62,756 nucleotides of DNA from a virus (Duplodnaviria; Caudoviricetes). How positions within the stretch are numbered: position 1 is the first letter of the stretch; each line of letters begins with the position of its first letter. Both the position numbers and the translations under genes were made by a program. Below are positions 17,440 through 42,194 of the stretch, piece by piece. The DNA is taken from positions 1 to 62,756 of the IMG/VR virus record IMGVR_UViG_3300027869_000002. One strand, written 5' to 3'. The notes below the pieces were generated by a model. It did no database searches, had not been told where the DNA came from, and worked only from the letters and a program-made list of their open reading frames with translations.

Positions 17440-18114
17440 TTAGTGGGTGTATTGCGTGACAGGTGGATCGTCGGTCGATTTGGGAGCCACGGTAAACGTG
17501 ACGGTTGCCCCGCTCGCCGTGTAGTCCGTGGTGGGAATCTGCTCTACGCCATTCAGCCACACGGTCTGCGAGGAAACGGGATTCGGCGTGTAGCTTGAGG
17601 TGAAAGCGGTGTTTGATCCGTTCAAGGTGCCCGAGAGGTTCTCGCGGACGATACTGGGTCCGGAGCTCCCGGCGCCGCGTTCGGTGAAGTAGTTCGTGCC
17701 ATCCGACGCGATGTAGATGCCCTGGCCCGGCTGCAGCACGATCGACGCGGACGATCCGTCAAGATTCGCGCCTGCAGGAGGCGACCCGCTTAACGGGGTG
17801 ATCGTGAGCGTGGGAGTGACCGGCGGGCTTCCGGCAGTGACGCTCGCGTTCTGGATGAAGACGTCCCATTGTCCAAAGGGGGGCGCCGAGGGAAGCGTGA
17901 ACGTGCCGTTGGCCGTGCCTTCGAATACCAGCAGCATCCCGCAGTCGGAGCTGAGGAGCTGATAGCTGACGGTTTTGACCGCGGCCCCGCCGGTATTCGG
18001 CACATACGCGGAGTCGTTCCGCGGCGTGGAGGTGTCGCGCTGCCACTTGGCGTTCTGGCGTCCGGAGGGCGCCGCGGGCGTCGCGTCGTTCAGGTTTTGC
18101 TGGTTGGCAGGCAT
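17440..18114 (-). CDS. Tail fibre/baseplate-associated protein (2 GSPP motifs)
   Basis: GTLNGSNTAFT...WLNGVEQ..TTDYT fibre motif. Confidence 0.7.
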   Translation of the reverse strand: MPANQQNLNDATPAAPSGRQNAKWQRDTSTPRNDSAYVPNTGGAAVKTVSYQLLSSDCGMLLVFEGTANGTFTLPSAPPFGQWDVFIQNASVTAGSPPVTPTLTITPLSGSPPAGANLDGSSASIVLQPGQGIYIASDGTNYFTERGAGSSGPSIVRENLSGTLNGSNTAFTSSYTPNPVSSQTVWLNGVEQIPTTDYTASGATVTFTVAPKSTDDPPVTQYTH

Positions 18115-18153
18115 GACCGCAATGCGCTATATGTGTTGGGCGGAGGAATCCGA

Positions 18154-18585
18154 ATGGCACCGAAACAGATTGTGCGTCCCCCACTGAAAACGCCGGAAGC
18201 AGAGAAGCCGTCCGAAGTAAAGAAACCCGCCGAGGCAGAGAAAAAAGCCGAAGCACATGACAGGCGGAGTGCCGCGGGCGTAGCGTGGAAGAAGCCTCTC
18301 CCGCGAGAACCAGACCATCTCCTGTGGAAACGCGCCCGCGCCGAAAATGCGCGCGTGGTGATTCGCCTGCTAACCGGCGACGTGATCGCTGGCTTGGTGG
18401 CGGACTCCGGCTTGTACACCGTGATGATTCAAAGCGACGACGGCCAAGTGCTCGTTTTTAAAAACGCGATCGCGACGGTTCATGCCCCGTTCACCAGCAG
18501 CTCGAAAGAGTCGAAGCCGGACGAGCCGCCGGGCCCCACGACGGTTCCCCCACCTCCTGGCAGCGCCACGATCGATCCGATGTAA
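18154..18585 (+). CDS. hfq: Hfq/Sm-like RNA chaperone, antisense to the late operon
   Basis: GGAGGA RBS; Sm1-like VVIRLLTGDVIAGLVADSGLYTVMI and Sm2-like VLVFKNAIATV (compare Hfq VYKHAISTV). Confidence 0.7.
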   Translation: MAPKQIVRPPLKTPEAEKPSEVKKPAEAEKKAEAHDRRSAAGVAWKKPLPREPDHLLWKRARAENARVVIRLLTGDVIAGLVADSGLYTVMIQSDDGQVLVFKNAIATVHAPFTSSSKESKPDEPPGPTTVPPPPGSATIDPM

Positions 18586-21500
18586 GTGTTTCCCGGCACG
18601 CCCACTAGCGCCGCGGAGGTCTGGCAAATCCCTACGAGATTCGTCTGCCCCGGTGAGTCTCCGGTGTAGCCCGGATCTGTGATGGTCACGTAATAGGTCG
18701 TCGGCACTGAAGGCGCGGGAATGGTGAACACGCGCGCATTGTAAACCACCGTGTTCGACGGAAAATTCGCCGTCACCTGCGCCATATCGATGGTGGTGGC
18801 GGTGGGATTTGACAGCGCCGCCGATGGAGCAACCGGCGGAGAGCCCGCGGGCGTGGGAGTCACGGAATAGCTCGATGGATTTCCGGATGCCGAGCCCGCC
18901 GCGCCCGTCGGGGTGTAGGCGTATGGAGTGCAGTCGGCCAGGTCCTGGACCTGCGCGATGTTCGAATTAAAGGCCGCGAATTTGAAATAGAGCGTCTTGC
19001 CGATCCACGTCGGATCCAAGGCCAGGCGCATGATGCCGGTGTAGGGCGGTCCCACGAAACAGAATCGCGATGTGCCGCTTTGAGACAACGGCACGGCTGG
19101 AATGATCGGCCCTTGGTGGAAGACGCCCTGATTCGGCGCAGGGCAGCCGAAGACTCCGCGGTCCAGGTGATTTCCCACCGGCGGAGATCCCGTCGCGAGC
19201 GCCTTCAGCGCGTAGATTTCCGTGCCGACCAGCTCCGCCAGAGCGTAGGTCATCAGCTCGTATGGAATCCCCGTCACCTGGTTGCCGCTGGGGGGAAGCG
19301 CGATGGCTCCGAAGTGGATGGCGTTCTGTCCATCCGGCCCGGCCAGCGTGTCGTTCTGCGCCGAGACAAGTGGTACGGCGACATCCCACACGGCTAGTTG
19401 CGATTGATCGGAGCCCAAGGGCAGCGATGGATTTTCGCGCAGGTTCCAGGCAAAGTGCGGAGTGATGGTGAAGGGGTCCTGGTTCTGATTGTTCGCGGCG
19501 TCGTAGCCGAACGCGATGACCAGACTGCCGGGCTGGTTGACCGGGTAGGCTCCGCTCGAGATAGTGAAGGCGCCGCCGAAAATCGCCTGGTTAAACGAGA
19601 ACGTGAAGGGCAGGACACTGGGGGGCGAGCCCGTGGTGGCCAGGTCGGAGTATTCGAGCGCCGCGAACAGAATCTCTCCTGTTCCCGATTGAAACGATAC
19701 CGTAACCGTGTTCCCGCCCGAGACGATGTTCAGCGCGGCGTATACGTAGACCTTGGAGTAGACGCCGAAATCGGAGACGGCGGAGGTGGTGAACAGCAAC
19801 CCGTAGGAGTTGCCGTTCGAGTCTGAGACGTTGACGCCCAGCGGCATGCTTTCGCGCGTCGCAATGATCAGTAGGATGGCGTTGCCCGGATTGTTCGAGA
19901 GTGGAAAGATCTTGGAGGCGGTGGAGGCGCTGACGGCGGCCGTTGAACAGGACTGCTGATAGAGCGGGGAAGTGGCCGCCCCCGTCACCAGACACGGATA
20001 CGTGAAGGCGTCCTCGTCGGTGGCCGAATAGGAATCCAGCGTCCCGTGGCATTCCGAAAGGTCTACGATGAGATCGTTCGTTGAATCGGGCGACGGATGC
20101 GCCGCCCAGGGTTGGGTGAGCCATCCGGTGGTGGCGTTACCTAAGAGCGCGTTCGAGGGCGGGGCGTTGTTTCCGCCGACGACACTGCCGCCCTGCACCA
20201 AAGGCGCCACGGGCTGGTAGCTGTTCCCGCCGTCTGTCGAGACATACACGAAGCAGCCGCCGTAGTCCGGGATGACCGGCGGACTCCCCACGGCGGCGCC
20301 GCCGGAGACGGCCAGCCACAATTCGGGCTGCGTGTTCCCTCCCGCGAGTCTCGGTACCGGCTCGAAGAGCACCGGAATATTCACCGATCCCGGAGCTCCG
20401 GTTTTCGGAATGTATCCCTGCTGCTGAGTCGCGGGAAGTTCGAGGGGCGCGTAGCAGCCGTAGATAAACGGCTCCGCCGTGCACTTCAGGCCGAGGTCTT
20501 TGTCTTCATCGCATGAGAGCAGGCGGACCGGGACTTTCACATATGGCACAGGCACCGTTCCGCCCGGCCCCTGCGTGTTCGGCATCATGGAGGCCACGGG
20601 AACCGTGACCAGGTCGCCAGGTTCGAACAGTTTCCATTTCGCGTTCAGCGTGAACTCGGTCTGATTTCTGACCAGGTCCGCCAGTCTCACCTGGATGTCG
20701 AGATACATTCTCGAGACCGCCGGCGACTGGAACATGGGCATGCGCTTGGGCGAGTCCTTGCGCGGCCCGTAGAGCGCTACCGCTCCGGATTCCGGCTCCG
20801 AGATGTTGACTTCGTTGTATTGGGATGCCCGGTTGGGATGCGAGACGCTCAGAATGTCCGGTACGTTCACCTGCGCCTTGCGCGTGACAGTGACGGGCGG
20901 AGTATCCGGGCTCGATGTGATGAAGTCGGACTCGACCAGGTCAACGATGGGGCCCGCCGCGGTGGGCGCGTTGTAGACGGCGCCGTTTCCAACCGCCGAG
21001 ACTTCCGAGCGCGCGATGGACTTGAGCGAGAAGCCCGACCAGACCGGCCAGGCATCCATGGCTTCGTAGAGCTGCCCCAGGATGTCCGAGCCCCTGACCT
21101 GCGAATCAAGAAACAGCGAGCCCCACAGTCCCGCGGCCCGGCACTGGTTTCGCACGATCTGGAGCGACGGCTTGTCGAGAATGTCCCCGATCACATTGCC
21201 GAGGGCGGGGGGATAGTTCGGAGGCTGCGAGCACTTGAACGCCAGCAGGGCCACGTGCGCGGGGGTGTGGCTTGCGCCCACAGTGTGAGCGGTGTATTGG
21301 TACGTCCCTGGAAATTGCACCACGCGGTATTGCTCGCGGCAGAGCGCGGTGAGCACGGTAAGATCGGCCACGTCCGGATTCAGCAGGTTCTGCCACAGCG
21401 CCACCGGAGGAACGGCGCCTCCTCCAGAGAGTTGGGAATAATCCGCGATCGCCAGGATATATTCGGGCGTGCCCTGGACTCCCGTCGTCGTGATGGAAGC

Positions 21501-22970: not shown

Positions 22971-22990
22971 GGAAGTGGGAAGATCGGGCT

Positions 22991-23188
22991 ATGGTGGATT
23001 TCAAGATTGGCAACGTGGTGCGGCTGAAGACCGGCGGCCCATGCATGACAGTGGAGTCACTCAGCGATTCGCTAAAGGACCGGGTATCCTGCGTGTGGTT
23101 CAAAAATCACGCAAGCGAAAAGGACCCAATATGGGGGGAAGTCACACGCGCAAGATTTGAAGTTCAATCTCTCGAATTGGTTACCTGA
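22991..23188 (+). CDS. YodC/DUF2158-family protein, antisense
   Basis: FKIGNVVRLKTGGPCMTV...VSCVWF...F...SLE. Confidence 0.8.
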   Translation: MVDFKIGNVVRLKTGGPCMTVESLSDSLKDRVSCVWFKNHASEKDPIWGEVTRARFEVQSLELVT

Positions 23189-23466: not shown

Positions 23467-23486
23467 GGCAAGTTTAGCCCGACAGG

Positions 23487-25647: not shown

Positions 25648-26397
25648 TTAAGCCGCCGGCGGCCGCGAGCTAACGAGCTTCAGCGTCCCGGTGCCGTTGC
25701 GCGCGTTCTCTCCGCCGATGGTCCACAACTGCTGCGCCCACTGTTCGAATTCCGAGGTGTCGGATTTCAGCCTCACGCGGAAATAGAAGTTGAACGTGGC
25801 ACTGATCGGCCCGGTGGGTTGGGCGGCCCATTGAATCACGAGGCCCCGCCAGGAATAGCCGGGAATCGCAACGCCCGGGCCCAGGATAGTGTAGTCCGTG
25901 CCGTTGTTCTTCAATACGCCGTTCGCATAGACCGCGATGGTGCTCGCCGGGTTTAGGTCAGTGACATCCTCCCAGAACAATCCCCCCATGTTCCGCTGGA
26001 TGGGCGAGTAGTAAACCGGAGGCGAGCCGCCGTCGTTGACCAGTTGCAGCTCAGCCTGGGTGTTGGGAACCGGGGGAGAGCCTGAAAGCGCAGGACCCAC
26101 CGAGTCATCTGACGGATCGTCGAACAGGATGTCGTTCAATTGCCCCTGGCAGGCCAGGATGAATCCCATGAAATAGCGCAGGTCGGTGTACGGCGCGTAC
26201 GGTTGTGTGTTCCCCGAGCCTGGCCAGGCGTCGAAGAGAAACTCGTACATCAGTGTGAAGGTCCAGACGGGATTGTAGGTTTGCGCGATCCTTACGGTGT
26301 CTTCTCCAGGCGAGGCTTGGACGATGGTCTTGCCGTCCATGGATTTGAGGACGGTCCAGGTGAGTCCCTTGATATTGGCGGGCCAGATAGCTGACAT
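25648..26397 (-). CDS. Distal tail protein (DUF2460-like; 2 GSPP motifs)
   Basis: Follows tape measure; ISATFNFYFRVRL C-terminal motif. Confidence 0.75.
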   Translation of the reverse strand: MSAIWPANIKGLTWTVLKSMDGKTIVQASPGEDTVRIAQTYNPVWTFTLMYEFLFDAWPGSGNTQPYAPYTDLRYFMGFILACQGQLNDILFDDPSDDSVGPALSGSPPVPNTQAELQLVNDGGSPPVYYSPIQRNMGGLFWEDVTDLNPASTIAVYANGVLKNNGTDYTILGPGVAIPGYSWRGLVIQWAAQPTGPISATFNFYFRVRLKSDTSEFEQWAQQLWTIGGENARNGTGTLKLVSSRPPAA

Positions 26398-31156: not shown

Positions 31157-31657
31157 CTACGGAACTAAAATCTTGACCGGGATGATGGCGCCGGCCTGTT
31201 GGGAATAGATGCCCTGGTCAATGAGCGATTCGCCTTCGATCCAGCAGTGGTGAACCAGGCCGCCCAGGGTCTGCAGGTTCTGATAACTGCCATTCTGGGG
31301 TGCTAAGGCCGTTTCAATCGCCAGCAGCAGCGCGTTGATTTGTGTGGCCGCGAGCGAGGTTTCTTGTCCGGGCGCCGGATTGATGGCCGATTCGAAGCAG
31401 TACATCACCAGCCACACATCGAGCGTGAGTTTTCCCCCCGTGCCCATGGGCCTCGGGACGCGCGATTCCTTCATCTCGACGACGAACAGCGCGGGCTGCT
31501 GCGCGGGGGAGAGTTCTTCCGGATGCACGTGCCGGCGTCCGACCGTCTGAAAGATCGGCGGCGAGCCTTGCAGATTTACCTGCAACAGAGCGAGCAGCGC
31601 CGCGTAGATGGGCTCCCGATCGATCAGGGCGAGCTGGCTAGGCATGCAGCGCCTCAT
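31157..31657 (-). CDS. Tail terminator (1 GSPP motif)
   Basis: REPIYAAL...QPALF...QTLGGLVHHCWIEG; upstream of tail tube. Confidence 0.75.
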   Translation of the reverse strand: MRRCMPSQLALIDREPIYAALLALLQVNLQGSPPIFQTVGRRHVHPEELSPAQQPALFVVEMKESRVPRPMGTGGKLTLDVWLVMYCFESAINPAPGQETSLAATQINALLLAIETALAPQNGSYQNLQTLGGLVHHCWIEGESLIDQGIYSQQAGAIIPVKILVP

Positions 31658-33100: not shown

Positions 33101-33803
33101 GGGTTTGCGCCCAATCCTCGACGCGCTTGGACCACAGCAAACGGTCGACGGCTTCCCAGGATTTGCCGGTCATCTCTACGTCCCGGTCCCAGGCCTTGAT
33201 GAGCATGCGCATGGCGAGGCGAATGGTCGCGGGGACTGACTCGGGTGCAGAGCCGTAGCCGGCGGTGAAGTTCACGGTGACGGCGCTTGGAACGTAGAGC
33301 ACAGAGGGCCAGTTCTGTCCGGAGTTCGGGAAGATGCGGGCGGGCTCGGATTTCAGATCGACGACGAATTGCCCGCTCTGATCCTGCGGCGTTCCTGGAA
33401 GCAGGGTCTGCTGGTTCCCGTTTGTGTCGACGTACTGGATGTTATCGACACTCAGGATGGGCGACGGAAACAGCTTGACCATCTGGCTGTAATTCCAGAG
33501 CGTGGTGGAGAATCTGGGCAGCGAGTAATATGCCGGCGGGTAGGCCTGCTGGCTCATTAACGTGTCGGTGTAGTACGGGAACGAATCCATCGACTGCGCG
33601 AAGCCCGTGGCGATGAAGGTGCGCCGCGTGAAGGTCTCGCAATATTCCCGCGCCGCTACGATGAGATCCCGCAGCCTGGTGGCCAGGTTCTTCGAAGTGA
33701 CATGGTCGGAGTCCTCCCAGGGTCCATAGCCGAGCATCACTTTCACGTCGGCGAGTGACAGCGGACCGCACGCGGGCGGAGAAGTATTTACAATGGACGA
33801 CAT
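33093..33803 (-). CDS. Head-tail connector (HK97 gp6-like)
   Basis: PLSLADVK...LIVAAREYCETFTRR...FTAGYG...VPATIRLAM. Confidence 0.85.
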   Translation of the reverse strand: MSSIVNTSPPACGPLSLADVKVMLGYGPWEDSDHVTSKNLATRLRDLIVAAREYCETFTRRTFIATGFAQSMDSFPYYTDTLMSQQAYPPAYYSLPRFSTTLWNYSQMVKLFPSPILSVDNIQYVDTNGNQQTLLPGTPQDQSGQFVVDLKSEPARIFPNSGQNWPSVLYVPSAVTVNFTAGYGSAPESVPATIRLAMRMLIKAWDRDVEMTGKSWEAVDRLLWSKRVEDWAQTRG

Positions 33804-33809
33804 TGGAGA

Positions 33810-34605: not shown

Positions 34606-34820
34606 CTATTCTCTTTCTTACCAGGAACCCGCTACAGGATTATGCCGGGTACATCCAACAGATCAGGGACTCGCGAGATACTCTCGCCTTGGCGGTCAAG
34701 CTCGCGGATCTGAGAGACCACCTTCGCCCGAACTGTCCGGCTCGACTGCGACCGCAATATCAGAAGGCTTGGCAGACTTTGACAGGCGGCCCTTTTCCCA
34801 CCATTCCCAAAGGTGACTGA
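34599..34820 (+). pseudogene. C-terminal half of an HD-domain (alarmone-hydrolase-like) phosphohydrolase, antisense
   Basis: LTR...DYAGYIQQI...ALAVKLADLRDH...QYQKA; HD-containing N-terminal half absent. Confidence 0.5.
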
Positions 34821-35514
34821 CTCCCGCGCTATACGTTCTCCAGGGGCGCTGCCAGCCCTTCGCGATATACTCCGCGCTCAGCGACGCCCACGGCTCCATG
34901 GGAAGCCGGTCCAGCAGGAACAGCGATAGTGCCGGCTGAATCTGCGCCCGCGTGACTTCCGGATGCGCCCTTTGCCAGGCCTCGAAGCCGCCGTATTTCC
35001 CCTCCGGACTCAGCGGCCGCCCTTCGAACGCGCGCCGGCGAAAGACGCCGATTCCGCCGATGGTGGCCACCTCCACGTAGGAAGGTGGACCTGGTCGCAT
35101 CTCCAGATCGCGCGTGGGCTCCGGACGATAGGCCATCGAGAAGTGCGGGCAGCGGCTGTCCGGCGGTTCGATGCCCAGCAGGTCCAGTTCCGGATGGGCT
35201 TCAAACGTGGCCGCGCATTGGTCGAGCCAGCCGGGAGGCACGATCACGTCGTTATCGATCTTGGCGAAGAACTCGGCGCCAGGCTGCGACAGGTATTCCG
35301 CCATGATTGCTACCGGGCTGCCCCATACTCCTCCGTGAATTTCCCCCGCCGTTCTGAACGGTGATTGAAATTCCAAACTCACGTTTGGAAATTCGCTGTC
35401 CTGATAGGTGATCTGGCGATCAACCAGCCCCCAGTTCGTGTTTGCCAGCAGCGCCTTGAAGCTCGCCCGCGAAAACTTCAGGCGGTGGTGCGCCAGGAAT
35501 AGGATGTCGATCAC
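34696..35514 (-). CDS. GT-A/GT2-like glycosyltransferase
   Basis: FFAKIDNDVIVPPGWL (DxD motif), IGGIG. Confidence 0.8.
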   Translation of the reverse strand: MIDILFLAHHRLKFSRASFKALLANTNWGLVDRQITYQDSEFPNVSLEFQSPFRTAGEIHGGVWGSPVAIMAEYLSQPGAEFFAKIDNDVIVPPGWLDQCAATFEAHPELDLLGIEPPDSRCPHFSMAYRPEPTRDLEMRPGPPSYVEVATIGGIGVFRRRAFEGRPLSPEGKYGGFEAWQRAHPEVTRAQIQPALSLFLLDRLPMEPWASLSAEYIAKGWQRPWRTYSAGVSHLWEWWEKGRLSKSAKPSDIAVAVEPDSSGEGGLSDPRA

Positions 35515-36146
35515 CTGGTGGCCTCGGCGAAACTGGCGCTGGTCGACGCCTTCACGGCCGCGATTCGATGCAGGATTTTGCGCAGATCATCGCCATGGCC
35601 TGGCTGCTTCCACATCCGGTCCGAATTGCTCTCATATTCAAGCCGCCTGATTGGCAGGTCCAGCTCGAAAAACGGATTCAGCGCCGTGAAGACGCGGTCG
35701 CATTCTCGGTAGAACAAATCGTCGAATGGAAGTACGCCAAAGTAACGGTCGAAGCAGAAGCGCAGGTTGCGGTGAAACAGCGCCCCCCAGCCCACGAGAC
35801 TGATTCCGAGCGGGGCGTATGCCCGCCGGTGGCCAGGCGAAGGTATGTTGCAGGCGATTTCTTCCTGCGTCATTCGGTTATCGCAGATGGGCGATAGTGG
35901 CCCGGCACCCTTCTCCGCTCGCTCGATGAATTCCCGCACAGGCACCACGCAATCGTCATCCTGCACATAAATCCATTCGTGCTTCGCTTCGGCGATTCCC
36001 AGGTATCGCCCATAGACCTTAACGTCCAGCTTCCGTTTCGAGTTATCCCAGACCACGATGTCATCAAACGGCAGTGACTCCAGGATGGGAGACAGGTCCA
36101 CATCGCCCTTGGTGACGAGGACGGCCGAGATGTCAGAGCAGTTCAC
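35511..36146 (-). CDS. GT-A/GT2-like glycosyltransferase
   Basis: IVVWDNS...GRY...IYVQDDDCVV. Confidence 0.8.
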   Translation of the reverse strand: MNCSDISAVLVTKGDVDLSPILESLPFDDIVVWDNSKRKLDVKVYGRYLGIAEAKHEWIYVQDDDCVVPVREFIERAEKGAGPLSPICDNRMTQEEIACNIPSPGHRRAYAPLGISLVGWGALFHRNLRFCFDRYFGVLPFDDLFYRECDRVFTALNPFFELDLPIRRLEYESNSDRMWKQPGHGDDLRKILHRIAAVKASTSASFAEATR

Positions 36147-37593
36147 GAAAGAACTCCAGCGCCCGCGCCTTGGTCAGTTGCCCGCTGCGGGTGTACGCGC
36201 GGGTCTTGCCATCTAACAGCGGAGGATTTAGCGGGTCCATGGCCGATCCCAGGTTGATATACGTCCGCCCGGGGAACTTCTCCCACAGCTTCACCACCGG
36301 GATGGTTCCAGCCATGCCGGCCGCCCAGAGCAGGATATCGAAGCCGAACGGGTCATTCGCCAGCTTCTCGTAAATCGAATCCACCGACGCCAGCAGGTCC
36401 TTCATGGGCGTGACCACGTGCTCGCAGCCGAGCATGCGCGCGGCCGCGGCGTGCTCCTTGGGTCCAATATACACTTTCCGCCGCGTGTCCGCCTTGACCG
36501 CCCTGTAGAAATCGAGCAGCTCGCAGGATTCGCGCGTTAGGAGCAGGGCTTCGAAGTGTAGGAAGTTCAGCCGGGCGCCCCCGATCAGCCTGGCATACTC
36601 TGCCCGGTATTCTGTCGAGCGGTTGGCACCGAACGAAGCCGAGAGCCAGTCGCCGACAAAAATTCGGCCCTGCTCCTTTTCCCAATAATCAAGCTCTGCA
36701 TCGCCGCCAGACCCATCCGGACGCCAGGCGAACAGGCGATCCCACGCCTCCTGCATCCCGCGCGCAAGTTCCGGCGAATACTGTTCGCCGTCCGCTGTGT
36801 GGCCGATTCCCTTCCGGTTGATGCACTCTAACGCGCCATCGCCGTAGCGGACGAACAGGAACGGGTTGCGGCTCCGAAGCCTGGATGTGAGGTACCCGGC
36901 GCTTTCGTCGATCGACAGGCGGGCGTAGGTCCCATTGCGGCTGAGCGGGTCGAATCTCATCTGGCTATCCGAGCTGATGACTCCCGTGGGCCTCGGCGGG
37001 CCGCCCCAGAATTCGGATGATCCCCGTACCGGGCGCTGCGCCACCACGCCGTATCCCAGCGGGAATCGAAAGCCGCCCAGGTCGATCGAAGCGCGGCGCT
37101 CGTGGCGGACGATGTCAAAGCCGGCCTGGAACAGCAGGACTTCCATCCCCGCCTTGGTGAACCGCCAGAAATCGTTAACCTCCACCTCGTCCCAATTTGT
37201 CGGGTACGTCATCACCAGGTAGCCGCCGGGTTTCAGCACACCGAATAACCGGCCCAGCCACACCTTGGGGTCGACCAGGTATTGCATCACCTGGGTGCAG
37301 ATGACGGCGTCGAAGAGCGCGCCTGCCGGCCAGGGATCGCCCTCGTCGTACGGCACATAATCGCCGTGGACAAGGTCCCGGTATGGCTGCGGCGTTCGGC
37401 ACGTCTCCGGCTTCCCGGCGCCGAAGTCCAGCACGCGGCCGCCGTAAATATATCTGCCGTGCTGCTCCATGAACCGGCGTATGGAGGTGCGCTCCAGCTC
37501 CCGCACGGTGTGCTGGTTCCACAGCTCGGGCGCGATCCAGTCCTTGGTTAAAGTGGCTTCTGCCATATCCCTATCATGGCCGGGATCTCGCAC
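36133..37593 (-). CDS. SAM methyltransferase fused to a GT-D (DUF1792)-like domain
   Basis: VLDFGAG...FDAVICTQV...LKPGG; C-terminal FVRYGDG...AAGM...INLGSAMDP. Confidence 0.75.
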   Translation of the reverse strand: MRDPGHDRDMAEATLTKDWIAPELWNQHTVRELERTSIRRFMEQHGRYIYGGRVLDFGAGKPETCRTPQPYRDLVHGDYVPYDEGDPWPAGALFDAVICTQVMQYLVDPKVWLGRLFGVLKPGGYLVMTYPTNWDEVEVNDFWRFTKAGMEVLLFQAGFDIVRHERRASIDLGGFRFPLGYGVVAQRPVRGSSEFWGGPPRPTGVISSDSQMRFDPLSRNGTYARLSIDESAGYLTSRLRSRNPFLFVRYGDGALECINRKGIGHTADGEQYSPELARGMQEAWDRLFAWRPDGSGGDAELDYWEKEQGRIFVGDWLSASFGANRSTEYRAEYARLIGGARLNFLHFEALLLTRESCELLDFYRAVKADTRRKVYIGPKEHAAAARMLGCEHVVTPMKDLLASVDSIYEKLANDPFGFDILLWAAGMAGTIPVVKLWEKFPGRTYINLGSAMDPLNPPLLDGKTRAYTRSGQLTKARALEFFRELL

Positions 37594-38183
37594 TGCATCA
37601 CCGGGTCAGTGGAAAATAACTCGCGATGCACCTCCCGCAGTTCTGTATAGGACAGGTGCCTGTCGAGCTGCCCGGTGGTGAGCGAGTGATCGTGAATCAG
37701 GTTCAGCAGCTCCAGCGGACGCAGGTGCACGTGCAGGTAGAAGACGCCCCCCGGCTTCAGGATGCGGGCGATCTTGGGGAGCAGGTGGAAGCCCATCTCG
37801 CCGTGATCCAGGGCGTTGGCGCACAGGATGGTGTCGAAGACGTAATCGCCCGGGTCCCACTGTTCAAACGGCTCCGCGAAATACCGGATGTCGCCGCGCC
37901 CCTCCAGCAGGCTCAGCTCCTCATAGTGCTCGATCAGCGGATCGATCGCCACGCGCAGGCCCGCGTTCAGATGCGGAAGCATTCCCCAATACGGTCCGGT
38001 CCCGATCTCCAGGATGCTCTGATCTTCCGGTGCAACCCACGGCCGCTCGGGCGCGTGTGACCCGAAAGCCACGAGGTAGGCACGTTGCAGCGCCTTCTGC
38101 GCCAGGAGGCCGTCCGGTCCGTCGAGCAGCTCCGCCCGTGTCCAGTACTTCAGCTCGCGGAGATCTTTTCGGCTGAGGGTCAC
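37548..38183 (-). CDS. Class I SAM methyltransferase
   Basis: ILEIGTGP...AIDPL...NALDH...ILKPGG; GTG start overlaps the upstream stop. Confidence 0.85.
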   Translation of the reverse strand: MTLSRKDLRELKYWTRAELLDGPDGLLAQKALQRAYLVAFGSHAPERPWVAPEDQSILEIGTGPYWGMLPHLNAGLRVAIDPLIEHYEELSLLEGRGDIRYFAEPFEQWDPGDYVFDTILCANALDHGEMGFHLLPKIARILKPGGVFYLHVHLRPLELLNLIHDHSLTTGQLDRHLSYTELREVHRELFSTDPVMQCEIPAMIGIWQKPL

Positions 38184-38797
38184 TCGTAATACTCCCAGAG
38201 ATCCCGGCAGAAATGATCCCGGCACCCCAGGCGTTCCAGGTCGATCTGCGACTCGTAGCAGGCCAGCGCTCGAAGCTTGCGGCGGACCATTTCGCCCGTG
38301 AATGCCACTGGCCTATCCGGGTCTCCGTTCGGCAATCGGCGCTCGGATTTCCCGCCTCGATGCGTCTCTGTTCGATAGGTGTAGGTGAGATAGTGAGTCA
38401 CCTGGCCTGGCCAGAGGATGTCTGCGGCGCGCCCGACGGCGTTGTGCTGCTCGTGGCCATTCTCTTCAATTGCGGGGGCATAGACGTGCTCGATCTCTTC
38501 ATCTCCGAATGGCCGCCATGGCTTTATAAGTAGTAGCGCATCCGAGACCGCCTCCGCGTCCGACGCGGTCGCATGATGGTCGGGGATGCCGGCAAACATC
38601 GCGATATCACAGCCCAGTTCCAGCAGCGCGCGGCGGGTTTCGAATCGTCGATCGTCCGCAGTCACCGGATTACCCCGCTTTTGCTGGAGGAACGAATCGA
38701 AGACCACAACCACTGCCACATTCGACTTCTCGCGCTGGATGGTGAAACTAGTCCACAACGTTTCATCATCGTTGTGGGGGGCCAACACGAGCCTCAA
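38180..38797 (-). CDS. PIG-L family N-acetylhexosamine deacetylase
   Basis: LAPHNDDE...RRFETRRA...GHEQH...KLRALACYESQ. Confidence 0.85.
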   Translation of the reverse strand: MRLVLAPHNDDETLWTSFTIQREKSNVAVVVVFDSFLQQKRGNPVTADDRRFETRRALLELGCDIAMFAGIPDHHATASDAEAVSDALLLIKPWRPFGDEEIEHVYAPAIEENGHEQHNAVGRAADILWPGQVTHYLTYTYRTETHRGGKSERRLPNGDPDRPVAFTGEMVRRKLRALACYESQIDLERLGCRDHFCRDLWEYYE

Positions 38798-39510
38798 GCG
38801 GACGCTCTCCGAAGAACCCAGGCGGCCTTCATGCGCGCGCGGGTTTCCGCGCTCTTTGGCCTACCTTTTGAAGCGACGCTGATCTTTCGTTTCGTCTCCG
38901 CTGAAAGCGGAACTCCCGGACGGACGACACGGCATATTGCTTGCTGGCGTTGTTCGGGATTCTGCAAGCGACGTTTGGCCGCCGCACTCATTGCCGCCCT
39001 GCCGGCTAGAGATTTAGGCTTCCCGGCGTTCGCGGCGCGGCATTTGTCTTTTGCGAGGTCGCTGTGCTTCCAGCCTCTGACTCTTTCGCGGGTTCGATTG
39101 GCCTCAGCGATGCGCTCCCGAGCTGCTGGATCCGCAAACCGCCGTCTATTAGCCGCGGCTATTTTCGCGCGCTGTTCTTGGGTCAGCGCAAAGCCGCCGC
39201 CGCCCTCTCCGCCCGCTCTGATATTGGTCAGGCGCGCGCCCGCATCACGAAAAGCAGCGATCCATCTTTGCTCAGCCTGGTCGAGTCCAGCCCCTTCCGC
39301 CAGTGATTCGAGCTGCACAATGGAGACCTGATAACCCGCCGATCTGATCCAGTTACAGACGTACTGCCGCATACCCCTGCGCGCAGCCCAGAGGTGGCGG
39401 TCCAGGCGATCAGCCAAAGAAGCCGTCGTCTTCCCGACGTAGCGAATCGCTCCAGTCCGATTATCGCGAAGCCCATAAATAAAGGCGCTTTCCATATTCC
39501 CCATGGTCAC
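38794..39510 (-). CDS. GIY-YIG homing endonuclease with NUMOD3 repeats
   Basis: IYGLRD...RYVGKT...RL..H...E..WI...LTN..GGEG; SAETKRKIS and SAETRARM repeats. Confidence 0.85.
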   Translation of the reverse strand: MTMGNMESAFIYGLRDNRTGAIRYVGKTTASLADRLDRHLWAARRGMRQYVCNWIRSAGYQVSIVQLESLAEGAGLDQAEQRWIAAFRDAGARLTNIRAGGEGGGGFALTQEQRAKIAAANRRRFADPAARERIAEANRTRERVRGWKHSDLAKDKCRAANAGKPKSLAGRAAMSAAAKRRLQNPEQRQQAICRVVRPGVPLSAETKRKISVASKGRPKSAETRARMKAAWVLRRASA

Positions 39511-39554
39511 ACAGAGCGATCAAATCGAAGGTACTAGATGGGTGGTATCCAGCT

Positions 39555-40079
39555 TCAATTCTTGACCGCCTGTAACAATGCCCTCACCTTGCTGCGTCTC
39601 TCCGCGCCCTCGCCGTATTCATAGAGCTCCCAGTGCAGCGGCCGAAACAGCGCTGTGATTCCATAAGCCGGCCCCAATCTTCCGCGTTCACCCCGAGGGT
39701 GATTCCACTCTTCGCAGAAGTAGTACCGGTCATCCATGGTCCAGAACGTCGTGTGCGTGGGGTCCGCAAACGCCCCCGGATTCACCCGTCCGTCCGAGAG
39801 ATACACGCACGGCACCCACAGATCCAAAGTCCCGTTAGCCTGCAGCACGCGGTGGGCTTCGTTCAGCGTGAAGATCTTCGATGGGAGATGCTCGAACACA
39901 TCGTGGGCAATGATGTCCTCGACTGACGACGTCCGCCACGGCCAGGCCACCCGCAGGTCCGCGATCTGATCGCACGGCGGGCATTGATCCACGTTCAGAT
40001 AGCCCGGCTTCAAATCGTCCGAGCATCCCAAATGCAGCCTCAAAACCACTCCCGCTTCGAAGCCGCCAGGCCCGCGCAC
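39555..40079 (-). CDS. SAM methyltransferase (type 11-like)
   Basis: LHLGCS...GYLNVD...DL...HDVFEHL...EAHRVL...DPTH. Confidence 0.85.
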   Translation of the reverse strand: MRGPGGFEAGVVLRLHLGCSDDLKPGYLNVDQCPPCDQIADLRVAWPWRTSSVEDIIAHDVFEHLPSKIFTLNEAHRVLQANGTLDLWVPCVYLSDGRVNPGAFADPTHTTFWTMDDRYYFCEEWNHPRGERGRLGPAYGITALFRPLHWELYEYGEGAERRSKVRALLQAVKN

Positions 40080-40110
40080 AGACTCAGGCCATAAAGGAAC
40101 AGCAGAAAGA

Positions 40111-40824
40111 TCATGTCAGTGCCTCAACATTGACCGCCGCGAAGAATGCCGACGGAAACGCCTCGTCCCGGATGCGCGGCCAGCCGTTCGATGCGATGTT
40201 GCGCGCGCTTGAGCTATTCGAATCGTGCGCCCGCGCCACGCACATCCCTCCGCCGTCGAGGGTGGCCACGCCGTCAATCGCTTGCGCCTGGCGCATGACT
40301 TGTACGTCCGTGGCGTCGAAGCGCGGGTTCGCGGGGAGTCCGGAGTACTCGGGCCACCGGTGCGATTTCCAGAACTCTTTGGTGTAGGCCATGGAGGTTC
40401 CGATCGCGAAGCCTTCCGCGCCTTTCCACCGGTATCCGAGCGCCGTCCGCATGTCCCAGAACAGGAGCGAGTGATAGCCGGACATGGGTTTGCCTGACTC
40501 GCCGAGCAGTCTTACCTGCTCTTCCATCCGTCCGGGCGCCGACCAGTCGTCGGAATCGAAGTGCATAATCACTTCGCCCTGGGCAAGCTGGCAGCACTTT
40601 TCACGCTTCGCCCCGATGGTTGCGCGTGGCTGTCTCAGGTACCGCAGCGAAAGCTGCTTTCCCGCACAGAAGCGATCGGCAAACGCTCCGGGGAATGACG
40701 GATCGTCTTCGTCGTCCAGAATCACCAGCTCGCGCGGCGCGTACGTCTGCGCCATGAAACACTTCACAGCGGTCCGGGCGAGCGCCTGCCTGCCCCTGGT
40801 GGGCATGATGGCGGAAACGAGCAT
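40111..40824 (-). CDS. GT2 glycosyltransferase
   Basis: VSAIMPT.GR...ELVILDD...IGAKR...HFDSDDWS. Confidence 0.9.
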   Translation of the reverse strand: MLVSAIMPTRGRQALARTAVKCFMAQTYAPRELVILDDEDDPSFPGAFADRFCAGKQLSLRYLRQPRATIGAKREKCCQLAQGEVIMHFDSDDWSAPGRMEEQVRLLGESGKPMSGYHSLLFWDMRTALGYRWKGAEGFAIGTSMAYTKEFWKSHRWPEYSGLPANPRFDATDVQVMRQAQAIDGVATLDGGGMCVARAHDSNSSSARNIASNGWPRIRDEAFPSAFFAAVNVEALT

Positions 40825-40879
40825 TCTCAGGCTTTCTCGCGTTTGGCCCGCGCGCGCTTCTTCTTGTCGCGGCCCTTGC

Positions 40880-41710
40880 TCACAGGACTTCTACCGTGGC
40901 AACGATATCCCCGAGAGCGTCCACTGTGACTGCTCCACCGGTGAATACGCCCGCACCGGTGCAGGTGGCGATGGTGCCGGCAGTGGGCGACGCGGAGTAG
41001 AGCGTGCCGCCGTTATTCGTGATGGTCACCGCACCCGTGGGAACGTTGCCCGATACCGTGATGGTCCCGAGGGCTGCGACACCGGTGGAATTATTGGTAA
41101 AGGTGACGATCTGGGTGCCATAGCGCCCATCGAGAGTCGTGCCGTAGGCCTGGATGATTTTTCCCGTGTAGTCGATGAACGTTGCCGGATTGGTGTGGCA
41201 GGTCCGCGGGGGAAACGTGATCACCCCGCCGGCGGCGATCGCCGTGGTGATCGCGGTGGTGTCGTCAGTCACTCCATCGCAGCGGGCGCCTGAGTTTTCA
41301 ACCGACACGGCGCCGGTGACCTGGGATGGATTCGGCCCGCTGATCTCCGTGCGAATGGTGACCAGCACGCCTGCCCCTCCGGACCAGGTGGCGGAGATGG
41401 AATAGTGATCGTAGACCGAGGCGATCGTGGGTTTGCGCGAAGCCACGCTCGAGCCCGTGGTGGCGTTCGAATCCAGCTGCGTGCAAACGTTCAGCGACGT
41501 GCAGCCCGAAATAACTACGGTCGTTGAGGTGGGAGAGCCGAGGACCGTTTCGAGGAAGCCGGCGACCTGGGAGCTATACTGATTCGCCACCGTGATGGAG
41601 GCGCCCGAGGCGGAGATGGTCTGCGAATCGGTATGGAGCAGCCCGCCCTGGGCGAGAGTCAGCAGGCACGCGAGCAGCCCGAGCGCGATGGTCTTTGAGA
41701 GTGTGAGCAT
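40880..41710 (-). CDS. Exported-looking protein with a pectate-lyase-3-type beta-helix start
   Basis: Signal-peptide-like MLTLSKTIALGLLACLLTLAQG; GARCDGVTDDTTAI motif. Confidence 0.6.
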   Translation of the reverse strand: MLTLSKTIALGLLACLLTLAQGGLLHTDSQTISASGASITVANQYSSQVAGFLETVLGSPTSTTVVISGCTSLNVCTQLDSNATTGSSVASRKPTIASVYDHYSISATWSGGAGVLVTIRTEISGPNPSQVTGAVSVENSGARCDGVTDDTTAITTAIAAGGVITFPPRTCHTNPATFIDYTGKIIQAYGTTLDGRYGTQIVTFTNNSTGVAALGTITVSGNVPTGAVTITNNGGTLYSASPTAGTIATCTGAGVFTGGAVTVDALGDIVATVEVL

Positions 41711-41762
41711 GAGGAAAAGGTGGGGCCGCTGGTAGGCAGCAGCCCCCAAGCGAGGCTTCTGG

Positions 41763-42194
41763 TTAAGTGATTGCAAAGCCGGTGATTGAGCCGTTGACGT
41801 ACCAGGTGCCGTTATACGCTTTGAGCGATACGGACTGGCCCTTGGTGCCGGCGGCGGTCAGGATGTGGTTGACGCCGTTGATGCCGTTGGCGGGCGTGGT
41901 CACGGTGTGCGCGTGCCCCGTGCCGTCGATGATATCCAGCCGGCGGCCGTCATCACCGCCTGCGGAGGGCAGGCCGGCAATAGGAGCGGCGAGAAGATAG
42001 GCGCCGGCACTCACCTTAGTGAGAATGACCAGGCCTTCCTTCGAGGAGATCTCCGCCGGGTCGGAGGCCACGGGCGGGGACGATACGGTATCGAGCGGTT
42101 TCACCTCGACGCCAAACATGGGTTCGAGGTTTTGACAGATGAAGCTCTCCTCGTCGGGAGAGGTAGTCGGGAAGCGGTTCACGATATTAGCCAT
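41763..42194 (-). CDS. Head decoration/capsid-associated protein (SSPPV variant motif)
   Basis: AAGGAG RBS, directly after MCP; beta-rich, ends LKAYNGTWYV. Confidence 0.65.
   Translation of the reverse strand: MANIVNRFPTTSPDEESFICQNLEPMFGVEVKPLDTVSSPPVASDPAEISSKEGLVILTKVSAGAYLLAAPIAGLPSAGGDDGRRLDIIDGTGHAHTVTTPANGINGVNHILTAAGTKGQSVSLKAYNGTWYVNGSITGFAIT

What the first reader, a model, noticed from the sequence alone, without database searches (positions are those of the whole stretch)
17440..42194. A GSPP(V) peptide motif recurring across the neck and tail proteins: candidate glycosylation sequon
Seen: exact G-S-P-P occurs 12 times in six structural proteins. Locations are the fibre-like protein (17776, 17821), large tail protein (18834, 19179, 19620, 20277), Dit (26017, 26071), tail tube (30778), terminator (31556) and adaptor (32765, 32828). 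Eight are GSPPV; the rest are GSPPA/S/I/T. Variants SSPPV (head decoration, 42072) and TSPPA (connector, ~33775) also occur. The Ser is encoded by TCG, TCT, AGC and AGT, so this is protein-level selection rather than a DNA repeat. I found none in the MCP, portal, tape measure or non-structural genes I accept as real. A rough estimate (G, S, P about 8-10% each, ~2700 aa) predicts well under one chance hit. Established: some mycobacteriophages O-glycosylate a Ser on capsid/tail-tube subunits using their own glycosyltransferases. Inference: GSPPV is a portable acceptor site that directs the phage's own glycan enzymes to many virion surfaces. Alternatives are a docking site for a decoration protein or a protease site.
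Basis: partly seen in the sequence, partly recalled or inferred. Interest (0 to 1): 0.92.

Follow-up and report, generated by a model that had tools for sequence, protein, structure and literature searches.

The report
Recurring GSPP tag on phage tail proteins
A four-residue motif (Gly-Ser-Pro-Pro) has been inserted again and again into surface loops of this phage's neck and tail proteins and is inherited together with a phage sugar-transferase gene, so it is probably the address label for coating the virus particle with sugars, though no experiment has shown this yet.

Summary
GSPP occurs 12 times in six neck and tail proteins, at the stated coordinates. About 0.36 are expected, and it is the commonest and most over-represented 4-mer of the proteome. 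Synonymous codons vary at all four residues.

New evidence:
- The sites are coil segments. Compared with outgroups they are 2-9-residue loop insertions or substitutions. In the tube and terminator they sit where other relatives carry a ~60-aa domain insert.
- Against the closest relative, motif residues are 37/40 identical and flanks 122/200, with many synonymous changes. There are also lineage-specific gains.
- Relatives whose GT2 is at least 50% identical hold 27 GSPP in 51,979 aa. Those with more distant GT2s hold 2 in 234,033 aa.
- Two unrelated glycan islands share only this GT2.
- An unrelated siphophage (L211) shares only GT2 paralogues with the window. It has three GSPPV in distal-tail proteins.

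Against: many phages with GT2s 33-46% identical lack GSPP, L211's GT2s are not sister to the window's, and no chemistry exists.

Best reading (about 0.55): a Ser O-glycosylation sequon read by the phage GT2. This is a new variant of phage virion glycosylation.

The parts
17821..17832 (-). GSPP(V), aa95 of the fibre-like protein 17440-18114
   Evidence: absent at the aligned position in G001, so a lineage-specific site
17776..17787 (-). GSPP(A), aa110 of the fibre-like protein
20277..20288 (-). GSPP(V), aa895 of the 1,496-aa tail protein 18480-22970 (Phage-tail_3 domain at aa623-791)
   Evidence: lies in a 9-residue insertion relative to G002 and G003, and is conserved in G001
19620..19631 (-). 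GSPP(S), aa1114 of the large tail protein
   Evidence: GSPPA in G001
19179..19190 (-). GSPP(V), aa1261 of the large tail protein
   Evidence: GSPPE in G001
18834..18845 (-). GSPP(V), aa1376 of the large tail protein
26071..26082 (-). GSPP(V), aa106 of the distal tail protein (Dit) 25648-26397
   Evidence: ASPPV or ASPPE in close relatives and G(A/E/T)PN in more distant ones; coil in the model; Dit fold
26017..26028 (-). GSPP(V), aa124 of Dit
   Evidence: replaces (V/A)GN in relatives and makes the loop 2 residues longer; coil 122-128 in the model
30778..30789 (-). GSPP(V), aa105 of the tail tube protein 30331-31101
   Evidence: loop 101-111 between strands with a pLDDT dip; tail-tube fold; at the same alignment position six relatives carry a ~60-aa insert
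31556..31567 (-). GSPP(I), aa31 of the 166-aa protein 31157-31657 between adaptor and tube (tail terminator by position only)
   Evidence: at the same position five relatives carry a ~60-aa insert
32828..32839 (-). GSPP(T), aa88 of the head-tail adaptor 32102-33100
   Evidence: GSPP in G001, ASPP in L003, G005 and L073, VSPPA in L069
32765..32776 (-). GSPP(V), aa109 of the adaptor, at the start of a domain homologous to the tube's middle domain
   Evidence: shared with L073 and absent in G001, L003 and G005
33774..33785 (-). TSPP(A) variant, aa7 of connector/adaptor-like protein 33093-33803
   Evidence: TSPP in G001, L003, G005 and L073; ETQP or EVAA in G003 and G002
42072..42083 (-). SSPP(V) variant, aa38 of the 143-aa protein next to the MCP (decoration protein by position only)
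   Evidence: SSPPL in G001; not in G005 or G002
40111..40824 (-). GT2-family glycosyltransferase, 237 aa; candidate enzyme that reads the motif
   Evidence: Pfam PF00535, 50.4 bits against a cutoff of 23.3; HFDSDDWS invariant in 7 homologues; the only island gene shared by both island types of the GSPP clade
34696..40079 (-). Rest of the glycan island: a methyltransferase-like protein (39555-40079; its Pfam hit is below the cutoff), a GIY-YIG homing endonuclease (38794-39510), a PIG-L-type de-N-acetylase (38180-38797), a methyltransferase (37548-38225), a 486-aa protein with an N-terminal methyltransferase domain (36133-37593), and two unknown proteins (35511-36146, 34696-35514)
   Evidence: conserved at 56-78% in G001, L009 and L011 and at 51-60% in L069

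Best explanation
G-S-P-P is a short, portable acceptor site (sequon). The core is S-P-P, preceded by a small residue (mostly Gly) and usually followed by Val or another small or beta-branched residue. It marks exposed loops of neck, tail-tube, tail-tip and fibre proteins for O-glycosylation of the Ser in the cytoplasm.

The proposed mechanism is as follows. The conserved phage GT2 (40111-40824), a GT-A-type enzyme with an intact DxD-like motif, would add the first sugar from a nucleotide sugar. The variable rest of the island would then tailor the glycan: a PIG-L de-N-acetylase, methyltransferases and unknown proteins in this phage, and other GTs and methyltransferases in relatives. The PIG-L enzyme hints that the first sugar is an N-acetyl-hexosamine.

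What is shown:
- The motif's enrichment and its restriction to virion proteins.
- Its position in coil segments and at loops that tolerate insertions in relatives.
- Purifying selection on the four residues.
- Repeated gains of the motif.
- Co-inheritance with the GT2 orthologue.

What is inferred:
- That the Ser is modified.
- That the modification is a glycan.
- The identity of the sugar.
- The benefit to the phage, such as a hydrophilic or protective coat, or adhesion.
For: 1. Enrichment. There are 12 GSPP against 0.36 expected (P 7.6e-15), and it is the top 4-mer of the proteome. All 12 lie in neck and tail proteins, which make up 4,663 of 18,040 aa. By my arithmetic 0.258^12 is about 9e-8.

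2. Protein-level selection. Synonymous codons vary within the window and between orthologous sites, including AGC versus TCG for Ser. Against G001, motif residues are 37/40 identical and +-10-residue flanks 122/200 at the 10 alignable sites. Of all 12 window sites, 8 are fully kept in G001. One is G to A, one is lost, and the two fibre sites are absent. From a flank identity of 0.61, my arithmetic gives P(>=8 of 12) of about 4e-5.

3. Cassette-like gains in loops. The motif sits in short insertions relative to outgroups G002 and G003: 9 residues in the tail protein, 7 in the tube and 2-4 in the terminator. New sites have arisen in single lineages: MCP aa419 GSPPV in G005, L070 and L072; aa1582 in G001's tail protein; and fibre aa95 and aa110 here.

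4. Exposure. The tube site is in loop 101-111 with a pLDDT dip. The Dit sites are in coil. The tube and terminator sites coincide with the point where other relatives carry a ~60-aa insert.

5. Co-occurrence with the GT2. Loci with GT2 at least 50% identical hold 27 GSPP in 51,979 aa. These are 12 loci from 9 distinct contigs, and 7 of the 9 have at least one GSPP. The two without (L066, L069) hardly reach the neck genes, and L069 has VSPPA and ASPPV. Loci with GT2 below 50% identity hold 2 GSPP in 234,033 aa (59 loci). Relatives without an island have none in their structural genes: G002 and, L019, L020, L024, L028, L031, L034, L036 and L039, apart from four single hits on the opposite strand or in an unassigned 91-aa frame.

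6. Only the GT2 is common to the two island types of the GSPP clade. These are the window/G001/L069 type and the G005/L070-72/L073 type. In blastp at E <= 0.01 the GT2 is the only island enzyme they share. The only other cross-type hits are a 608-aa G005 protein with no family hit, matching window ORFs 40880-41776 and 16464-17429.

7. An independent lineage. L167/L211 is a siphophage with a small major tail protein. None of the 13 proteins tested is similar to a window protein at E < 0.01, except two GT2 paralogues at 34-40% identity; the only other hit is a 31-residue match at E 0.032. One paralogue lies directly upstream of the distal-tail genes, and the locus also has a GT-B enzyme and a methyltransferase. 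Its only three SPP are all GSPPV, in the 771-aa and 323-aa proteins after the tape measure. The expected GSPPV count is 0.0034, giving P 7e-9 before correcting for about 200 loci examined.

8. Precedent. Phage-encoded GTs glycosylate capsid and tail-tube subunits in mycobacteriophages (passages in PMC11600133, PMC12619734 and PMC12363180). Chloroviruses glycosylate capsid proteins in the cytoplasm at non-canonical sites, using virus GTs with a methyltransferase domain (PMC7019647 passages).
Against: - There is no chemical evidence of any modification.
- The GSPP-positive relatives are one clade, so points 5 and 6 amount to about one evolutionary event plus island swapping.
- G003 has the sister GT2 (43%) together with the adjacent methyltransferase (44%), a PIG-L enzyme and further GTs, yet has no GSPP and no other clearly enriched motif.
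- Dozens of loci with GT2s of 33-46% identity that include structural genes have none.
- In the GT2 tree, L211's two paralogues are not sisters of the window-clade GT2. A single origin of GSPP specificity is therefore not supported.
- The GT2's nearest solved relatives are polysaccharide synthases, not protein glycosyltransferases.
- Surface exposure is inferred from secondary structure, pLDDT and indels, not computed on an assembled tail.
- The Freeman et al. 2023 paper and all supplements were not available, so the Che8 acceptor residues are known to me only as 'C-termini'.
Confidence: 0.55

Rival explanations
1. GSPP is a recognition site for a different enzyme or modification. Examples are a host-encoded glycosyltransferase, kinase or prolyl hydroxylase, or one of the phage methyltransferases. 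On this reading the GT2 island is only a fellow traveller, serving for instance glycan synthesis for another purpose.
For: Many phages carrying this GT2 family lack GSPP. G003 has the sister GT2 without the motif. L211's GT2s are not sisters of the window's, so a shared reader outside the island would explain the recurrence equally well. Both prolines are as conserved as the Ser.
Against: No kinase or 2OG-oxygenase family was detected in the island by Pfam, NCBIfam or PHROGs, although two proteins remain unassigned. The window (62% GC) and L211 (55% GC) need not share a host. The only proteins the two phages detectably share are the GT2s.
Confidence: 0.17
2. GSPP is an unmodified docking motif. 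A short polyproline-II-type ligand would be bound by a phage decoration, fibre or chaperone protein that attaches along the neck and tail.
For: The motif is exposed, proline-rich and restricted to virion proteins. Unassigned proteins with weak structural-protein hits lie next to the island and fibre genes (40880-41776 and 16464-17429).
Against: The sites lie in proteins of very different symmetry and copy number: tube, terminator, adaptor, Dit, tail tip and fibre. The motif is only four residues with variable flanks. The candidate partners are not conserved across all GSPP lineages, while the GT2 is. L211 shares none of them.
Confidence: 0.1
3. GSPP is a purely structural loop cassette, a rigid Gly-Ser-Pro-Pro turn. 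It would spread by a local mutational bias or be favoured for folding or protease resistance, with no reader at all.
For: It always sits in coil segments at domain or strand boundaries. Pro-rich loops are stiff (general knowledge).
Against: A structural turn does not explain any of the following:
- The exact same tetrapeptide appears at 12 unrelated loops.
- SPP is almost never preceded by anything but Gly or another small residue.
- GTPP is not enriched.
- Equally related outgroups build the same loops without the motif.
- The motif tracks one GT2 lineage.
Confidence: 0.12

Closest known systems
Virion glycosylation of mycobacteriophages Che8, Corndog and Myrna (Freeman et al. 2023, Cell Host Microbe 31:1216). 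I saw only passages in citing papers; the paper itself is not held.
   Same: The phage itself encodes glycosyltransferases, and in Corndog also an O-methyltransferase. These modify capsid and tail-tube subunits, and the genes are a small cluster in the phage genome.
   Different: - The enzymes are not homologous. hhalign of the GT2 profile against Che8 gp109 and gp110 gives a probability below 1%, and tblastn of the GT2 against 50,697 phage records gave one weak hit.
- Che8's glycans are reported at the C-termini of two proteins. Here there are 12 internal loop sites in six neck and tail proteins and none in the MCP.
- Che8 has no GSPP in 15 structural proteins (6,074 aa). Its MCP and tube both end in -GS.
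- The host here is unknown, possibly Acidobacteriota, and not Mycobacterium.
Chlorovirus PBCV-1 capsid glycosylation (review PMC7019647, passages seen)
   Same: Virus-encoded, cytoplasmic glycosylation of structural proteins at sites that are not the canonical sequon. The GTs are combined with a methyltransferase activity. Atlas neighbours of the window's GT2 are small viral GT2s from Uroviricota and Nucleocytoviricota.
   Different: There the glycans are N-linked to Asn on capsid proteins of a eukaryotic giant virus. Here a Ser-based motif lies on the neck and tail of a siphophage. No orthology was tested.
Bacterial cytoplasmic protein glycosyltransferases with short sequons, such as NGT/HMW1C acting on N-X-S/T. 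The abstracts of PMC5303269 and PMC6318927 were seen in the listing. Listeria flagellin O-GlcNAc transferase GmaR, a GT2 enzyme, is recalled from memory and not checked.
   Same: A soluble GT uses nucleotide sugars and recognises a very short peptide motif on folded or folding proteins in the cytoplasm.
   Different: The motif, linkage and enzyme family differ (NGT is a GT41-type enzyme, from recall). None of these is known to use G-S-P-P. A search for the whole word 'GSPP' together with 'glycosylation' found 5 papers, none about a peptide motif.

Membership tests
Mycobacteriophage-type virion glycosylation (Che8/Corndog) | Phage-encoded glycosyltransferase gene(s) in the genome | tested here: met
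   GT2 at 40111-40824, PF00535 at 50.4 bits against a cutoff of 23.3
Mycobacteriophage-type virion glycosylation (Che8/Corndog) | Enzymes homologous to Che8 gp109/gp110 | tested here: not met
   hhalign probabilities of 0.2-0.3%; no Che8 or Corndog hit in tblastn of the phage records. gp108 was not compared.
Mycobacteriophage-type virion glycosylation (Che8/Corndog) | Glycans at the C-termini of the capsid and tail-tube subunits (as stated in PMC12619734) | tested here: not met
   The candidate sites here are internal (tube aa105 of 256) and there is none in the MCP. Che8's MCP and tube end in -GS and hold no GSPP.
Mycobacteriophage-type virion glycosylation (Che8/Corndog) | Glycan demonstrated on virion proteins | not testable with these tools
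   This is a metagenomic phage with no virions and no proteomics
GT2 / GT-A glycosyltransferases | Pfam Glycos_transf_2 domain above the gathering score, with a conserved acidic DxD-type motif (the motif's role is recalled) | tested here: met
   H88-F-D-S-D-D-W-S95 is invariant in 7 homologues; Atlas model pTM 0.85, and its structural neighbours are GT2 domains
Protein glycosylation sequon | The motif is necessary and sufficient for modification of the Ser | not testable with these tools
   Indirect evidence only: enrichment, selection and co-inheritance
Siphophage tail tube protein (carrier of site aa105) | Tail-tube fold | tested here: met
   Model pLDDT 80; Foldseek hits 8xkn_B (E 6e-9, TM 0.60), YSD1, Chi and JBD30 tube proteins
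Distal tail protein, Dit (carrier of sites aa106 and aa124) | Dit fold | tested here: met
   Model pLDDT 75; Foldseek hits the R4C baseplate chain 8gtc_G (E 1e-5), DT57C and T5 pb9; Pfam DUF2460

The most novel reading that the evidence does not exclude
G-S-P-P(V) is the first defined O-glycosylation sequon of a bacteriophage. It would be a four-residue tag that evolution can drop into any exposed loop to have a virion protein glycosylated by a small viral GT2. It has been used independently by at least two unrelated siphophage lineages, and the glycan-tailoring island behind it is exchangeable. If so, it would be a ready-made cytoplasmic 'glyco-tag' plus enzyme pair.
Probability: 0.4. Interest if true: 0.88.

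Novelty: new variant of a known kind. Interest (0 to 1): 0.8.

Why it matters
Virion glycosylation by phage-encoded enzymes is known from a few mycobacteriophages, where it changes antibody recognition. I found no peptide motif in print that directs it. I ran five searches, but the key paper and all supplements were not available to me.

A four-residue tag matters for several reasons. It would explain how a phage can coat many different structural proteins with one small enzyme. It would make virion glycosylation predictable from sequence alone, by counting the motif next to a GT2. It would show a modular design, with a conserved initiating enzyme and sequon and swappable tailoring islands. 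It would also offer a simple tool for cytoplasmic glyco-engineering of proteins and phage particles.

The hypothesis can be tested without the unknown host, by co-expressing synthetic genes.

Tried and rejected
- **Chance.** Rejected.
- **DNA repeat or DNA-level motif.** Rejected because all four residues use several codons, both here and at orthologous sites.
- **Repeated protein domain.** Mostly rejected, because the contexts of the 12 sites are unrelated. The exception is the adaptor aa109 and tube aa105 pair, which lie at the start of a homologous domain.
- **Thr as an alternative acceptor.** GTPP (3) and TPP (10) are not concentrated in virion proteins.
- **EF-P or polyproline stalling as the selected feature.** Considered and set aside. 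There are 89 PP in the proteome, and only the G-S-preceded ones are enriched and restricted to virion proteins. The stalling rules themselves are recalled, not checked.
- **Alternative enriched motif in G003,** which has the sister GT2 and its own island. None stood out; the top entries were EEQK 3 and SAST 5.
- **Naming the ~60-aa insert** found in relatives at the tube, terminator and Dit loops. It has no Pfam family at E <= 1. My first impression of a carbohydrate-binding module is unsupported.
- **Complex prediction of GT2 with the tail tube**. No verdict: score 0.00 and controls not run. This is neither evidence for nor against.
- **Cultured relatives.** There is no near DNA match in 50,697 phage records. 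The tube has only 33-34% relatives, in Acinetobacter, Brevundimonas and Pseudomonas phages. The GT2 has one weak hit.
- **Single GSPP hits elsewhere.** These include a conserved GAGSPPL in a ~390-aa protein of L174, L182, L199 and L205, and GSPPV in an ORF of L140 fused to or preceding an adaptor domain. They are too few to count as support.
- **GT2 orthologues in long contigs.** The large protein database lists GT2 orthologues of 50-65% identity in contigs of 12-308 kb (P0002, P0005, P0009, P0011, P0016, P0018).

Full report
**What the window is.** The 62,756-bp window is a complete virus record with direct terminal repeats and about 62% G+C. It has no near DNA match among 50,697 deposited phage records. 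The late region lies on the minus strand. Pfam and PHROGs identify the following:
- an HK97-type capsid protein (42255-43655);
- a gp6-like head-tail adaptor (32102-33100) and a second adaptor-like protein (33093-33803);
- a tape measure protein (26887-29607);
- a DUF2460 protein (25648-26397);
- a 1,496-aa protein with a Phage-tail_3 domain (18480-22970).

The 256-aa protein 30331-31101 has a siphophage tail-tube fold (model pLDDT 80; Foldseek 8xkn_B E 6e-9). The DUF2460 protein is a distal tail protein, Dit (8gtc_G, T5 pb9). The labels 'terminator' (31157-31657), 'decoration' (41763-42194) and 'fibre' (17440-18114; weak PHROG tail-fibre hit) rest on position or weak hits only.

A glycan island sits between the capsid/decoration genes and the neck genes. 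It holds:
- a GT2 glycosyltransferase (40111-40824);
- methyltransferase domains above the Pfam cutoff in two proteins (37548-38225 and 36133-37593), plus a weaker methyltransferase-like protein (39555-40079);
- a PIG-L-type de-N-acetylase (38180-38797);
- a GIY-YIG homing endonuclease (38794-39510);
- two proteins with no family hit.

**The observation.** The six-frame scan finds 13 GSPP. Eight are GSPPV. The SSPPV and TSPPA variants also exist.

My provisional gene set has 98 ORFs and 18,040 aa. It comes from a crude GC3-based caller that missed at least two genes and probably includes a few false ORFs. In this set GSPP is both the most frequent and the most over-represented 4-mer (12 against 0.36 expected, P 7.6e-15), and GSPPV is the most frequent 5-mer. 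Shuffling each neck or tail protein 2,000 times never gave more than 3.

SPP itself occurs only 15 times in the proteome. Twelve are GSPP, one is TSPP, one is SSPP, and one is FSPP in ORF 46937-47476. GTPP and other G-x-P-P are not concentrated in virion proteins. All four residues use several codons.

**Not a repeated domain, with one exception.** The flanks of the 12 sites are unrelated. The exception is the adaptor's aa109 site and the tube's aa105 site. The adaptor's residues 127-188 match the tail-tube family phrog_8234. A relative's tube protein also aligns to the adaptor at 41% identity, with the two GSPP in register. At most 11 sites are therefore independent in origin.

**Where the sites sit.**
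- In the tube model, GSPPV (105-109) lies in the loop 101-111 between two strands. The mean pLDDT of that block falls to 69, between blocks of 95 and 93.
- In the Dit model both sites are coil: 106-109 between short bridges, and 122-128 before a strand.
- Alignments of 44 tube-based loci are more telling. In the tube, six relatives (L017, L018, L023, L040-L042) carry a ~60-residue insert exactly at the GSPP position. In the terminator, five others (L030-L032, L034, L035) carry a similar insert exactly at its GSPP position. A similar insert sits in another loop of L031's Dit. These loops therefore tolerate a whole extra domain, which argues that they face outwards. The insert has no Pfam family.
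- I could not compute accessibility on an assembled tail.

**Comparative test 1: relatives found through the tail tube**.
- G001 is about 90% complete and 59-88% identical protein by protein. It has the same island. GSPP is again its top 4-mer (9 against 0.36 expected, P 2e-10), and all nine are in structural proteins.
- G002 is 93% complete, with tube 59% and MCP 60% identical. It has no island between MCP and connector and no GSPP.
- G003 has a different island and no GSPP.
- At the aligned positions the outgroups lack the residues altogether. Examples are window tail protein 'AVSGGAAVGSPPVIPDYGGCF' against 'GLSGAL---------QWGGCR', tube 'GAVGSPPVANQ' against 'LVG-------TS', and terminator 'QGSPPIF' against 'GS--TF'. 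In Dit, relatives of 41-53% identity have G(A/E/T)PN and (V/A)GN where the clade has (G/A)SPP(V/E) and GSPPV.
- Sites also turn over within the clade. G005, L070 and L072 have a six-residue insertion that creates GSPPV in the capsid protein (aa419). G001 has a seven-residue insertion that creates GSPPV near the C-terminus of its 1,614-aa tail protein. The window's two fibre sites and its adaptor aa109 site are absent in G001, and the latter is shared with L073.

**Selection.**
- At the 10 window sites with an alignable G001 orthologue, 37 of 40 motif residues are identical against 122 of 200 flanking residues.
- Counting all 12 window sites, 8 are fully kept, one is G to A, one is lost, and two (the fibre sites) have no motif in G001.
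- The residue after PP is free: V/L, I/T, V/A, S/A and V/E.
- The residue before S may be A, T, S or V in some lineages (ASPPV, ASPPQ, VSPPA).
- S-P-P was kept at most of these variant sites. The exception is adaptor aa109, where G001, L003 and G005 have DPP in place of SPP.
- Orthologous motif codons differ synonymously at most positions. One Ser uses AGC in the window and TCG in G001.

**Comparative test 2: the glycosyltransferase.** The GT2 has an invariant HFDSDDWS block. Its nearest neighbours are small GT2s of viruses, and its nearest solved relatives by sequence are polysaccharide synthases. Searching IMG/VR with a GT2 alignment gave 65 loci. The counts in my called ORFs were as follows:

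| Group of loci | Loci | aa scanned | GSPP |
|---|---|---|---|
| GT2 at least 50% identical | 12 | 51,979 | 27 |
| GT2 below 50% identical | 59 | 234,033 | 2 |
| No GT2 hit in the locus | 40 | 162,748 | 14 |

- The 12 loci of the first group come from 9 distinct contigs (L004=L071, L007=L067, L009=L068). Seven of the 9 contigs have at least one GSPP.
- In the third group, 13 of the 14 GSPP are in five short fragments of the same clade that do not reach the island (L003, L005, L006, L008, L010).
- A further 78 metagenome loci (some duplicating viral contigs) held 8 GSPP in 159,379 aa, three of them in one locus.

Within the GSPP clade there are two island types. The window/G001/L069 type is described above. 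The G005/L070-72/L073 type has a second GT2, FkbM- or Methyltransf_24-like proteins, a weak GDSL-like hit and unknown proteins. L073's island is 58-82% identical to G005's. The only island enzyme shared between the two types is the GT2, at 52-55%. One search's only other cross-type hits are a 608-aa G005 protein with no family hit, matching window ORFs 40880-41776 and 16464-17429. This is the pattern expected if the GT2 initiates on the protein and the rest tailors the glycan.

Two cautions apply. All these phages are one clade. G003 carries the sister GT2 (43%), with the adjacent methyltransferase (44%), a PIG-L enzyme and two more GTs, yet has no motif.

**An independent lineage.** Locus L167 and the longer, identical L211 (13.3 kb, 55% G+C) belong to a different siphophage. 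It has a 141-aa major tail protein of phrog_158, head-closure, chaperone and neck proteins, and a 710-733-aa tape measure. Upstream of its head-closure gene are a GT-B-like enzyme, a methyltransferase and a GT2. A second GT2 lies between the tape measure and the distal-tail genes.

I compared 13 of its proteins with the whole window proteome by blastp at E < 0.1. Only the two GT2s matched clearly, at 40% and 34% identity; the one other hit was a 31-residue match at E 0.032.

Its only three SPP are all GSPPV. Two are in the 771-aa protein and one is in the 323-aa protein that follow the second GT2. The expected GSPPV count is 0.0034, giving P 7e-9, which remains small after allowing for the roughly 200 loci I looked at. 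These two proteins have no family assignment, and 'distal tail' is by position only.

This is the strongest single argument that GSPPV is a recognised signal linked to this enzyme family. It is tempered by the GT2 tree, in which L211's paralogues are not sisters of the window clade, and by the many GT2-bearing loci without the motif.

**Host.** The only genome hit with a clear relative of the GT2 (41%) is a prophage in a Bryobacteraceae (Acidobacteriota) MAG. There the GT2 again lies beside the connector-like gene, downstream of terminase, portal and protease genes 29-31% identical to the window's. That prophage has no SPP. An acidobacterial host for the window's phage is therefore a weak inference.

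**Comparison with what is known.** Passages in citing papers state the following:
- Che8, Corndog and Myrna virions are glycosylated by phage GTs.
- Cluster O phages such as Corndog have three GTs downstream of an O-methyltransferase.
- The glycans sit at the C-termini of capsid and tail-tube subunits.

The original paper is not held, and supplements are closed, so I cannot exclude that an acceptor motif is described there.

Che8 gp109 and gp110 show no profile similarity to the window's GT2. Che8's 15 structural proteins (6,074 aa) hold no GSPP. Its capsid and tube proteins both end in Gly-Ser, which is a possible parallel to the G-S of GSPP that I could not follow up. Chloroviruses offer a second analogy: cytoplasmic, virus-encoded glycosylation at non-canonical sites, with a methyltransferase domain in a GT. 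Five literature searches found no GSPP-type sequon.

**Verdict.** Several lines of evidence show that GSPP is a functional, portable recognition signal on exposed loops of virion proteins:
- protein-level conservation against variable flanks;
- cassette-like gains in insertion-tolerant loops;
- restriction to virion proteins;
- co-inheritance with one GT2 lineage across swapped islands;
- recurrence as GSPPV in an unrelated GT2-bearing phage.

That it is an O-glycosylation sequon read by the GT2 is the best-supported mechanism (about 0.55), but it is wholly inferential. The rivals are another modification or a host reader (0.17), a structural cassette (0.12) and a docking motif (0.10). It is a new variant of phage virion glycosylation rather than a member of the mycobacteriophage system.

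Noticed in passing
L017, L018, L023, L040-L042 (tail tube); L030-L032, L034, L035 (terminator); L031:15408-16310 (Dit): A ~60-residue Trp/Gly/Thr-rich insert recurs in different structural proteins of related phages, at the very loops that carry GSPP in the window's clade. An example begins 'APAWTPSTPVAQGY'. It looks like a mobile decoration domain and has no Pfam family at E <= 1.
   Followed up: partly
window 38794-39510 (-): A GIY-YIG/NUMOD3 homing endonuclease sits between the methyltransferase-like gene and the PIG-L gene of the island. In G001 (L007) these two genes abut (tblastn ends at 2479 and starts at 2479), so the endonuclease is an insertion specific to this phage.
   Followed up: partly
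window 32102-33100 (-), aa about 100-190: The head-tail adaptor has a long N-terminal extension. Its residues 127-188 match the tail-tube family phrog_8234, so a copy of the tube's middle domain, GSPP included, has been grafted onto the adaptor. G002 and G003 adaptors are shorter and lack it.
   Followed up: partly
window 17440-18114 (-) versus G001:46449-51293: The window's separate 224-aa fibre-like protein is 50% identical to the C-terminal part of G001's 1,614-aa tail protein. This is a gene split or fusion between close relatives.
   Followed up: no
L126 (Bryobacteraceae MAG contig), 2567-10663: A prophage with terminase, portal and protease 29-31% identical to the window's has a GT2 (41%) right after a connector-like gene. 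This hints that this phage group, and the habit of keeping a GT2 at the head-neck junction, occurs in Acidobacteriota.
   Followed up: partly
L211:7593-8246 (+): A second GT2 paralogue is placed between the tape measure gene and the distal-tail genes that carry GSPPV. This is an unusual position for an enzyme gene.
   Followed up: partly
L174:12789-13994, L182:4469-5662, L199 and L205:13314-14474: A ~390-aa protein a few kb from a GT2 (35-38% identity) has a conserved 'GAGSPPL' and a Gly/Pro-rich tail. It is a single conserved site, too little to count as support.
   Followed up: no
L213 (Che8) 5051-5872 and 7613-8422: Che8's major capsid and major tail proteins are the two proteins reported as glycosylated at their C-termini. 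Both end in the dipeptide Gly-Ser.
   Followed up: no
G002 (L054-L056): The most enriched 4-mers of this relative are GSGY, YGSG and GDGY (7-8 each against about 0.2 expected). This points to a Gly/Tyr-rich repeat protein that I did not locate or study.
   Followed up: no
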